From: Cycas panzhihuaensis
Taxonomy: Eukaryota; Plantae; Cycadophyta
NCBI GenBank assembly: GCA_023213395.1
Contig: CM041465.1
Coordinates: forward strand, 73,849,741 to 73,913,740
Direction of reading: 5' to 3'
DNA length: 64,000 nt
Shown piece after piece: positions 13,068-14,409 of this stretch; the first letter of the stretch is position 1; the number at the start of each line of letters is the position of its first letter. Below the pieces are notes generated by a model that did not search any database, had not been told where the DNA came from, and worked only from the letters and a program-made list of their open reading frames with translations. The translations under genes were made by a program, and so were the position numbers.

Positions 13068-13214
13068 TGGTATCATAGCACAGTCAACCAGTGTCTTTTA
13101 GCAGTTAATATGAAAGATGAATGCTGAAATAAGGTCCTTCTAAACAACACACAAAGAAAGATTGCTTCGCAGCAGAGCAAGCAAAGAACTCACAGACATG
13201 GCTCTACAAGACAT

Positions 13215-13533
13215 CTCTCTTTCTCATGTCTTTCCTTCCTCTTATTGATGTTTGGCTATGATTGAGTAGCAAAGGCCTCCCTCTATATGATCCATTCACT
13301 ACAATAGATGCAATTGAGTTTGTTGAGCAGATTGAAGAACTGTCATCTGGTGCAGCTTGATGCTTCCTACCCACACAAACACTCTATGCTGGCCTTAAGG
13401 AGATGTCCCCACTGAAACTAGCTTCTATAGCTCGAGGTGTTTCTGAACCATCCCTATCCCAATTTGCTTGATCTGTATTCCCATCCTCCACTGCAGGTCT
13501 TAGTGTGCCAACAACATTATCTGCAGTGTCCAT
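13215..13533 (-). pseudogene. Captured host fragment: MATH-domain/TRAF1-like protein (At5g43560/At1g04300 family), central low-complexity region
   Basis: Translates as MDTADNVVGTLRPAVEDGNTDQANWDRDGSETPRAIEASFSG...*...DDSSSICSTNSIASIVVNGSYRGR...RGRK, matching the family motifs EDRDxSPVNWDTDxSE and DDSSSTCSTDSxPSVVMNGPYKG (recognised from memory, not searched). Confidence 0.75.
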
Positions 13534-13761
13534 TTAATAGCCCAGGAGTAACAGTTCCAAAAGCCAAGCGCATGGGACACTCACCTTGTGCAATTGTGGA
13601 GCAAAAACTCTACTCTTTTTCAGGTCCTATCATCAAAGATAAGTGGGGGAGGCATCACCCCTCATTTGAATTGAGGGCTGTACACAAGAAATACACATTT
13701 TACCATTTGATAGAGAAGAAGGTAAACCCAGGTTTAGGTTTTGTCCAGTGCAGAAGCGCCA

Positions 13762-13960
13762 CGGGAGATCAAACTTCTCATACGAATTGATCACCCCAGT
13801 TTTCCCGAGTTAAAAGACGTAATGGCATTTCCTCTTTTAGTTGCTTCGAGGGTTGGAGTACTTGCATGCAGGAAATGTGTTACATCAAGACTTGAAACCT
13901 TTGAATACGCTGATCAATGAGAATGGGGATCTTAAAAACTATGACTTCGGACTTGCATGA
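13762..13960 (+). pseudogene. Captured host fragment: MAP kinase (probably group C), subdomains III-IV and VIa-VII
   Basis: REIKLLIRIDHPSFPELKDVM / [43 protein letters not shown]. The lesions tag, caa and tga are single C/G transitions from cag, cga and cga. Confidence 0.9.
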
Positions 13961-14163
13961 AATGCAACTGAACTACCATTTCGATGCACCAGACTTGCGA
14001 ACGCAGCCATCTCCGTATCAGCCATGATCATCTCCTCTCTAGCCTGTAACCTGAGAAAGATACAAGAAATACGCCTCGCCACCACTGTTGTCGCCTCTAC
14101 AAAGCTGTCGAAGATGCCATCGCTCCAATCCTTCGCAGACCTGCAAGAAGACATAGCTACTGC

Positions 14164-14409
14164 CATCGCAATGAGGTAGGGTTTTGATTAACCTACCCAC
14201 CCCACCTCGGACCCTAATCAATTCAAATTCAACTTTCTTTAATATAATCTAATTTTTTGTCGGGTCCACAAATTTTTTTATTTATAATACTATATATATA
14301 AATGTTAAATTAAACCTAAAATTTCTTAATTATTAAACTTTAGGATTTAAAACCCCCATTTTTTATTACATTTTTCTTTATCTAGGCTCTCCCCCCCCCC
14401 CCCCCCCCC
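14164..14409 (-). promoter_or_regulatory. Putative antisense promoter module of C2 (G19 tract, TATA run, GGGTCCGAGG, telo-box, ATG)
   Basis: C19 at 14391-14409, (TA)n at 14291-14300, cctcggaccc at 14205-14214, AAACCCTACCT on the minus strand at ~14174-14184, ATG at 14166. Same motifs and order in C1 at 20281-20572. Confidence 0.55.

What the first reader, a model, noticed from the sequence alone, without database searches (positions are those of the whole stretch)
13080..14409. Copia leader carries a mosaic cassette of captured host gene fragments behind a conserved antisense promoter-like module
Seen: between the PBS and gag, C2 has ~1.1 kb of GC-elevated patchwork containing a MAP kinase fragment (+) and a MATH/TRAF1-like fragment (-). 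It is bounded by a module (G19, TATA run, GGGTCCGAGG, AAACCCTACCT, ATG) pointing antisense toward the 5' LTR. Sister element C1 has the same module at the same position but unrelated cargo. Known: gene capture by LTR elements exists (e.g. maize Bs1), and antisense ORFs in Gypsy elements usually lie 3' of pol. Inference: this Copia family has a dedicated, exchangeable cargo slot with its own promoter, a Pack-like system that could make chimeric antisense/dsRNA or siRNA against host signalling genes, or reduce its own silencing.
Basis: partly seen in the sequence, partly recalled or inferred. Interest (0 to 1): 0.9.

Follow-up and report, generated by a model that had tools for sequence, protein, structure and literature searches.

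The report
Copia leader carrying host gene mosaic
An old plant jumping gene carries scrambled pieces of at least two host genes just behind its start, next to a short conserved motif block that likely works as a backward-facing promoter, which would make this an unusually organised form of a known gene-capture process.

Summary
C2 is a decayed Ty1/copia element (LTRs about 8.5% diverged). Its leader holds two pieces of a MATH/TRAF gene in swapped order on the minus strand, two pieces of a MAPK/CDK-type kinase joined across a deletion on the plus strand, and probably a third donor. Contigs from three organisms bridge the same junctions at 7-14% difference, so the mosaic most likely spread with a subfamily. 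C1 shares the motif block (z = 8 against shuffles; TATA-to-telo-box spacing 112-120 versus 116 nt) and has unrelated, GC-raised sequence at the same place. Three things are not shown: host origin of C1's cargo (no donor found), promoter activity or small RNA, and that the block is family-wide (two copies compared; contig depth over it is low). The ORFs behind the block are not conserved. Gene capture by LTR elements is well known and common in gymnosperms, the likely host group. A fixed capture zone behind a conserved antisense promoter-like block in a Copia leader was not found in my literature searches. Verdict: new variant of a known kind; the anti-host function is speculation.

The parts
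12628..13067 (+). C2 5' LTR
   Evidence: 90% alike to 19707-20135; K2P 0.085; flanks GGTAG / ACTAG, a 3-of-5 target-site match
13068..13079 (+). C2 primer binding site, initiator-Met type (tRNA assignment recalled)
   Evidence: motif search
13080..13201 (.). cargo, donor not identified
   Evidence: 39% GC over 13080-13233; contigs of X1 and X5 bridge it to the MATH piece (records 2 and 25)
13202..13533 (-). MATH/TRAF host gene piece B (residues 532-631 of P0002; weak frameshifted extension to about 13202)
   Evidence: 64/100 identical, E 2e-31; extension 7/11, E 0.59
13532..13647 (-). MATH/TRAF host gene piece A (residues 1016-1052 of P0002), placed before piece B, so in swapped order
   Evidence: tblastn 19/37 identical, E 1.4e-5 against the window; contigs diverge at 13647 (tables 5 and 5c)
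13648..13709 (.). linker, donor unknown; the first 33 nt differ in an X2 contig
   Evidence: table 5, joint 13647-13681
13710..13757 (-). probable third host donor
   Evidence: one X24 contig matches only here, with about 100 loose letters on each side (table 7); strand is my reading by eye; no protein hit
13759..13825 (+). kinase piece 1 (N-lobe, REIKLL...DHP...KDVM)
   Evidence: only PDB match at E<=10 is a CMGC kinase, residues 75-96, E 0.89: weak alone, supported by its position beside piece 2
13826..13958 (+). kinase piece 2 (catalytic loop to DFG), in another frame, roughly 35 codons missing between the pieces
   Evidence: Pkinase E 6.8e-12; CDK5 and MPK6 E about 1e-13; size of the gap estimated from recalled kinase numbering
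13939..14166 (-). 75-codon antisense ORF starting 10 nt behind the telo-box; no homolog
   Evidence: no hits
14164..14409 (-). C2 conserved block: G19, TATA run, GGGTCCGAGG, telo-box, ATG; promoter-like
14410..15419 (+). AT-rich leader with degenerate C-run and G-run repeats
   Evidence: 25% GC; repeats; AAGGGGGACTATT shared with C1
15420..19706 (+). C2 gag-PR-INT-RT-RH, broken by stops and frameshifts, then polypurine tract
   Evidence: integrase seen by eye in the translation printed
19707..20135 (+). C2 3' LTR
20281..20572 (+). C1 conserved block (antisense to C1): G18, TATA run, GGGTCCGAGG, telo-box, ATG
20573..21452 (.). C1 variable segment, 39-46% GC, unrelated to C2's cargo, donor not identified
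21453..21909 (-). C1 PBS and 5' LTR
   Evidence: K2P 0.087 to the 3' LTR at 7321-7692
7321..12627 (-). rest of C1: leader remainder, gag-pol, 3' LTR; C2 is inserted into C1's leader in the opposite orientation
   Evidence: 75% alike to C2 gag-pol over 4342 columns; RVT_2 E 1.3e-64

Best explanation
C2 is a decayed Copia retrotransposon whose leader carries a mosaic of host gene fragments that likely built up by repeated capture and spread with a subfamily, in a variable zone between the primer binding site and a conserved block that likely acts as an antisense promoter. Shown: the element, the fragments, their swapped order and mixed orientation, the same junctions in contigs of other organisms, and the conserved block with unrelated content behind it in C1. 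Inferred: (1) capture by template switching of reverse transcriptase onto co-packaged mRNAs, with repair-type filler as the alternative; (2) the zone persists because insertions there leave the LTR, PBS and gag-pol intact; (3) the block starts a transcript running toward the 5' LTR; (4) that RNA is mostly non-coding, because the ORFs behind the block differ between C1 and C2; (5) it would pair with the element's own RNA and could yield small RNAs that also match the donor genes. The block is probably the element's own regulatory device and the cargo a passenger, not a weapon.
For: Host fragments. Shared junctions (table 8, which lists 32 of 17,340 records): the swapped MATH junction is bridged in 3 of 4 runs (X1 record 4, X2 record 12, X5 record 27); the kinase deletion in 4 of 4 (X1 records 5 and 6, X2 15, X5 28, X24 20); the third-donor/kinase junction in 1 of 4 (X1 record 5). 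These contigs differ from C2 by 7-14%, near the 8.5% between C2's own LTRs. Up to 15 contigs per run cover one cargo position (table 3). Other arrangements exist: joints at 13647-13681 and 14038-14133 (table 5). Block: the 100-nt window 14129-14228 scores z 8.0 against C1; the 10 cargo windows score -1.7 to 2.9 and the 12 later leader windows 0.0 to 4.4, the top one being the C run. Of 8 telo-boxes in the window, only the 2 in the blocks have a TATA-like run 40-200 nt upstream, at 116 nt and 112-120 nt, with an ATG 134 nt behind the TATA start in both. Telo-boxes are enriched in plant 5' UTRs (PMC3022908, passages). CpG o/e is 0.82-0.88 beside the block in C2 and 1.09 in C1's block, against 0.07-0.17 near C2's PBS.
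Against: Only two elements were compared. No donor was found for C1's segment: Pfam on 6 of 6 frames, one minus-frame stretch and one whole plus frame were all blank; the other frames were not searched deeply. At the 80% threshold, contig depth over the block is as low as over the cargo (3-80, against 28-5,900 in the AT-rich leader and thousands to tens of thousands in LTR and gag), so a C2-like block is not visibly family-wide; depth is no copy number, and a C1-like block would probably fail that threshold. One X5 contig skips 14186-14532, most of the block (28-letter side). The block is less conserved than the LTR core (z 13-24) and gag (z 32-34). The CpG gradient could reflect the donors' own CpG content. 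Antisense-oriented pieces are not what simple minus-strand switching gives, and intron loss and junction microsimilarity could not be tested.
Confidence: 0.5

Rival explanations
1. Ordinary capture into a tolerant leader. The block is a conserved sense-strand signal (packaging, dimerisation, splicing) or an inert remnant, not a promoter, and C1's segment is just other foreign DNA.
For: Gene-fragment capture is very common in gymnosperm TEs, Copia included (PMC13477047). Sirevirus captures show no orientation bias (10.1101/777037). TATA-like runs are frequent here (57 in the window). C2's core can form a small hairpin (z -2.7 for 31 nt).
Against: The hairpin is not conserved: C1's core folds worse than its shuffles (z +1.0 sense, +2.0 antisense). 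TATA, telo-box and ATG keep their order and spacing on the antisense strand in both elements.
Confidence: 0.3
2. The block drives an antisense accessory protein gene, like maize Grande gene23 or Retand ORFs but upstream of gag, and captures remodel or replace that ORF.
For: ATG in a similar context just behind the telo-box in both elements; similarity runs about 25 nt into the frame. MATH piece B and the third-donor stretch lie in the same antisense frame as the C2 ORF (translation). Upstream reverse extra ORFs are a recognised category (PMC6317226, passages).
Against: ORF lengths are 75 codons in C2 and 19-35 in C1, with no shared protein. The frame is closed by several stops over the kinase piece, and MATH piece A is in another frame. 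No homologs.
Confidence: 0.12
3. The cassette is a separate Pack-type DNA transposon or Helitron that inserted into each Copia leader.
For: Short, multi-donor, mixed-orientation, permuted pieces are typical of such elements (10.1101/777037; partly recalled).
Against: No terminal inverted repeats frame the cassette among the 25 longest of 82 inverted pairs. No shared Helitron-type end by eye. The segment starts directly at the PBS in both elements, in the same orientation. The block occurs nowhere else in the window.
Confidence: 0.06

Closest known systems
LTR-mediated gene capture: maize Bs1 and animal LTR retrocopies (Tan et al. 2016, PMC5131818, passages; review PMC13317346, passages)
   Same: Partial fragments of several host genes between two LTRs; later amplification with shared junctions.
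   Different: There the cargo replaces internal ORFs and is co-transcribed with the LTR element, often as sense in-frame products. Here gag-pol is retained, the cargo sits between PBS and gag, orientations are mixed, and a conserved antisense promoter-like block bounds it.
TE-captured exons in gymnosperm genomes (Platycladus study, PMC13477047, section 12 read whole; passages)
   Same: Likely the same plant group; Copia and Gypsy examples; about 14% of carriers hold two or more fragments.
   Different: The text I read describes no fixed position or conserved flanking block. Figure 7E and the supplements were not seen and could show leader captures.
Maize Sirevirus captures and the epigenetic-conflict model (Muyle et al., 10.1101/777037, passages)
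   Same: Copia-type carriers, no orientation bias, siRNA cross-talk with donors as a possible result.
   Different: Only 3% of Sireviruses carry fragments; no dedicated zone or internal promoter is mentioned in the passages seen.
Antisense extra ORFs and promoters: Grande gene23, RIRE2, Retand; AtRE1 and Mdoryco1-1 antisense promoters (Vicient and Casacuberta 2020, PMC7264820, parts 1-2 of 3 read)
   Same: Internal promoter facing antisense; dsRNA regulation proposed.
   Different: Those ORFs are conserved across copies, mostly lie between pol and the 3' LTR, and are argued not to be captured genes. Here the content is host-derived and differs between sisters.

Membership tests
Ty1/copia LTR retrotransposon | paired LTRs, PBS, polypurine tract, 5-bp target duplication | tested here: met
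   target duplication decayed (3 of 5 for C2; 4 of 5 for C1, read by eye)
Ty1/copia LTR retrotransposon | gag-PR-INT-RT-RH order with Copia-type RT | tested here: met
   RVT_2 and Copia gag; motif positions; integrase by eye (printout)
named Copia lineage (Gymco, Ivana, Ale) | RT/RH/INT placement against REXdb | not testable with these tools
   searched supplements gave no matches; best metagenome relative 52%
LTR-mediated retrocopy (Bs1 type) | host gene fragments inside the element | tested here: met
LTR-mediated retrocopy (Bs1 type) | later amplification with shared junctions | tested here: met
   table 8; orthologous copies of one locus in related species are not fully excluded
LTR-mediated retrocopy (Bs1 type) | intron loss and microsimilarity at junctions | not testable with these tools
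   no donor gene DNA; no genome held
LTR-mediated retrocopy (Bs1 type) | cargo replaces internal ORFs and lies in the element's sense | tested here: not met
   gag-pol retained; MATH pieces antisense, kinase sense
antisense extra ORF (Grande/Retand type) | ORF conserved across copies | tested here: not met
   75 versus 19-35 codons, unrelated; both copies are old, so decay may hide it
antisense extra ORF (Grande/Retand type) | [quoted passage not shown] | tested here: not met
   lies between PBS and gag
antisense extra ORF (Grande/Retand type) | own antisense promoter activity | not testable with these tools
   motif order and spacing only
Pack-MULE / Pack-CACTA / Helitron insert | terminal inverted repeats or Helitron ends framing the cargo | tested here: not met
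   for C2 (25 of 82 pairs shown); Helitron ends by eye only

The most novel reading that the evidence does not exclude
A gnetophyte Copia lineage keeps a dedicated, continually refilled cargo slot right behind its PBS and transcribes it backwards from its own host-style promoter; selection keeps the arrangement because the antisense RNA ties the element's silencing to host genes. It would be an autonomous LTR element with a built-in Pack-type expression cassette.
Probability: 0.15. Interest if true: 0.85.

Novelty: new variant of a known kind. Interest (0 to 1): 0.5.

Why it matters
Gene capture by LTR elements is usually treated as a rare accident at no fixed place. A lineage with a fixed capture zone and a conserved internal promoter would be a standing source of shuffled exons and of small RNAs matching host genes in a giant gymnosperm genome. 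It would also give a natural test of the epigenetic-conflict model: sister subfamilies with the same backbone and different cargo can be compared for copy number, methylation and donor silencing.

Tried and rejected
No genome is held, so no family-wide alignment was possible. The block pattern gave 0 matches in metagenome contigs. RT scans gave no relative in viral contigs and 79 distant loci in metagenomes (37-52% identity); 0 of 79 carry the block or match the C2 leader. No RNA holder was listed. X24 is only guessed to be RNA and contigs give no strand; it has no cover over 14014-15124; none of this is used for or against expression. The C2 antisense ORF gave nothing, and its opposite frame nothing (Atlas scores under 0.9, low recognition). 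C1's segment gave nothing. No reads or contigs were laid on C1's leader, so its copy number and donors stay open. A 25-nt likeness between the two cargos seen is not significant. A conserved RNA hairpin as the block's role was not supported, although the 150-nt antisense fold of C2 alone scores z -3.6. The bacterial promoter scan is not relevant. A Pfam scan of the other elements was not completed. The Bs1 paper is not held. Four look-ups of earlier findings gave nothing for this genome or block and only animal analogues. Nine literature searches listed no paper on a Copia leader cargo zone with an antisense promoter; subscription papers are largely missing.

Full report
Layout. The window is a nest of LTR retrotransposons at about 31% GC. 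C2 runs 12628-20135 on the plus strand and sits inside the leader of C1, which runs on the minus strand from about 21909 to 7321. Both are Copia by RVT_2, and C2 also by gag; both are broken by stops and frameshifts. Their LTR pairs are equally old (K2P 0.085 and 0.087); their RT regions differ by K2P 0.28 and are 76% identical as protein. The host is probably a gnetophyte. The best named match to the MATH cargo is Welwitschia at 59%; unnamed proteins reach 63-64% and named ferns 40-41%. This placement is an inference.

Cargo of C2. From the PBS onward: about 120 nt unassigned; MATH/TRAF residues 532-631 on the minus strand (64/100 identical); directly abutting, residues 1016-1052 of the same protein family (E 1.4e-5), so the later part of the gene precedes the earlier part in the donor's reading direction; a 60-nt linker; a 48-nt stretch matched by one X24 contig that runs on into unrelated letters at both ends, probably a third donor; kinase piece 1 (weak, E 0.89, the only PDB match); kinase piece 2 in another frame (Pkinase E 6.8e-12; CDK5 and MPK6 tied); and about 210 nt with no homolog on either strand. 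Two donor families are firm and a third is likely. The At5g43560/TRAF1 label for the MATH family is recalled; the calls show only Pfam accessions and one source name, 'MATH domain-containing protein'.

The mosaic is not private to this copy. I laid 4 of the 24 listed runs. Among the 32 records shown of 17,340, the swapped MATH junction is bridged in X1, X2 and X5 (organisms A, B, C), the kinase deletion in all four runs, and the third-donor/kinase junction in X1 only. These contigs differ from C2 by 7-14%, close to the divergence of C2's own LTRs, and up to 15 contigs of one run cover a single cargo position. That fits paralogous copies of a subfamily of similar age; orthologous copies in related species are not fully excluded. 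Joints at 13647-13681 and 14038-14133 show variant arrangements. Summed depth over the cargo is 2-208, against thousands to tens of thousands over LTR and gag, so carriers of this cargo look like a small part of the wider family, with the caveat that depth is no copy number. Depth in X1 and X5 tends to fall, and CpG o/e rises (0.07-0.17 to 0.82-0.88), from the PBS toward the block. This hints that pieces near the block are younger or less methylated, but the donors' own CpG content confounds it.

The block. In 100-nt windows against C1, the core window scores z 8.0; the ten cargo windows score -1.7 to 2.9, the twelve later leader windows 0.0 to 4.4, the best LTR windows 12.7 and 23.7, and gag up to 34. 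Read antisense, both elements have a G run, a TATA run, GGGTCCGAGG, a telo-box and an ATG. TATA to telo-box is 116 nt in C2 and 112-120 in C1. These are the only 2 of 8 telo-boxes in the window with a TATA-like run 40-200 nt upstream. Telo-boxes are enriched in plant 5' UTRs (PMC3022908, passages). A shared hairpin is not supported. The ORFs behind the block are 75 codons in C2 and 19-35 in C1, and are unrelated beyond the first few codons. So the block looks like a housekeeping-type RNA polymerase II promoter facing the 5' LTR, but no activity is shown.

C1's segment has the position, length (about 0.9 kb) and raised GC of cargo, and is unrelated to C2's, but no donor was found, and deep searches covered one whole frame and part of another. 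At 80% likeness the block is as thinly covered as the cargo (3-80), and one X5 contig skips most of it. 'Dedicated and exchangeable' therefore rests on two elements. Nothing here bears on siRNA or on benefit. In Platycladus carriers gained no methylation advantage (PMC13477047), and in maize the advantage was unconvincing (10.1101/777037).

Mechanism. Most likely (0.5): the stretch behind the PBS tolerates foreign sequence because LTR, PBS and gag-pol stay intact. Reverse transcriptase switches onto co-packaged mRNAs, as in Tan et al. (PMC5131818, passages), and repeated switches give permuted and deleted pieces. Antisense-oriented pieces would need a switch during second-strand synthesis, which resumes just behind the PBS, or DNA repair (my inference from the textbook cycle). 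The chimera then multiplies as a subfamily. The conserved block would transcribe the zone backwards into a mostly non-coding RNA able to pair with the element's RNA, a role proposed for other antisense promoters (PMC7264820, parts 1-2). Rivals: neutral capture with a non-promoter block (0.3), a decayed antisense accessory gene (0.12), an inserted Pack-type element (0.06).

Comparison and novelty. It works like Bs1-type LTR capture but fails two features of that class: gag-pol is retained and orientations are mixed. It resembles antisense extra-ORF elements in promoter direction but fails ORF conservation and position. Capture itself is common in gymnosperms, with hundreds of thousands of carriers per conifer genome (PMC13477047). 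Nine searches listed no paper on a fixed leader zone with a conserved antisense promoter-like block in a Copia lineage; figures and supplements of the Platycladus paper were not seen, and PMC3726574 (passages) describes captured genes without such a zone. I rate it a new variant of a known kind, interest 0.5; the dedicated, selected cassette has probability about 0.15.

Noticed in passing
window:54451-60361: A young element (LTRs 99% alike) on the minus strand with a Copia gag domain (E 1.5e-6) directly before its 3' LTR and no RT motif found, so apparently non-autonomous. Its long leader holds a 58% GC, CpG-rich repetitive island at about 57200-58050 with open frames on both strands and no Pfam hit. 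Its LTRs contain repeated PBS-like words.
   Followed up: partly
window:50661-63486: Several LTR-like repeats share the near-palindrome GGTGGTGTCTAAAGACACC; five related copies (family D11), including the pair 52404/63160 that encloses the young element.
   Followed up: no
window:14410-15419 and 11941-12623: Both AT-rich leaders keep the motif AAGGGGGACTATT shortly before gag although they do not align otherwise; C2 has C-run repeats followed by G-run repeats.
   Followed up: partly
window:28738-34640 and 41232-46717: Two decayed Gypsy elements (LTRs 86% and 83% alike); the first, translated in six frames, shows gag-pol to a chromodomain-like end by eye and no long leader.
   Followed up: partly
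window:6686-7320, 21920-22555, 38372-39686: C1 itself interrupts an older repeat whose two halves match one continuous copy at 38372-39686 (75%), with a 64-nt tandem unit: at least three levels of nesting.
   Followed up: no
window:21838-21909: C1's 5' LTR is about 60-70 nt longer at its start than the 3' LTR, with a short internal duplication (by eye).
   Followed up: no
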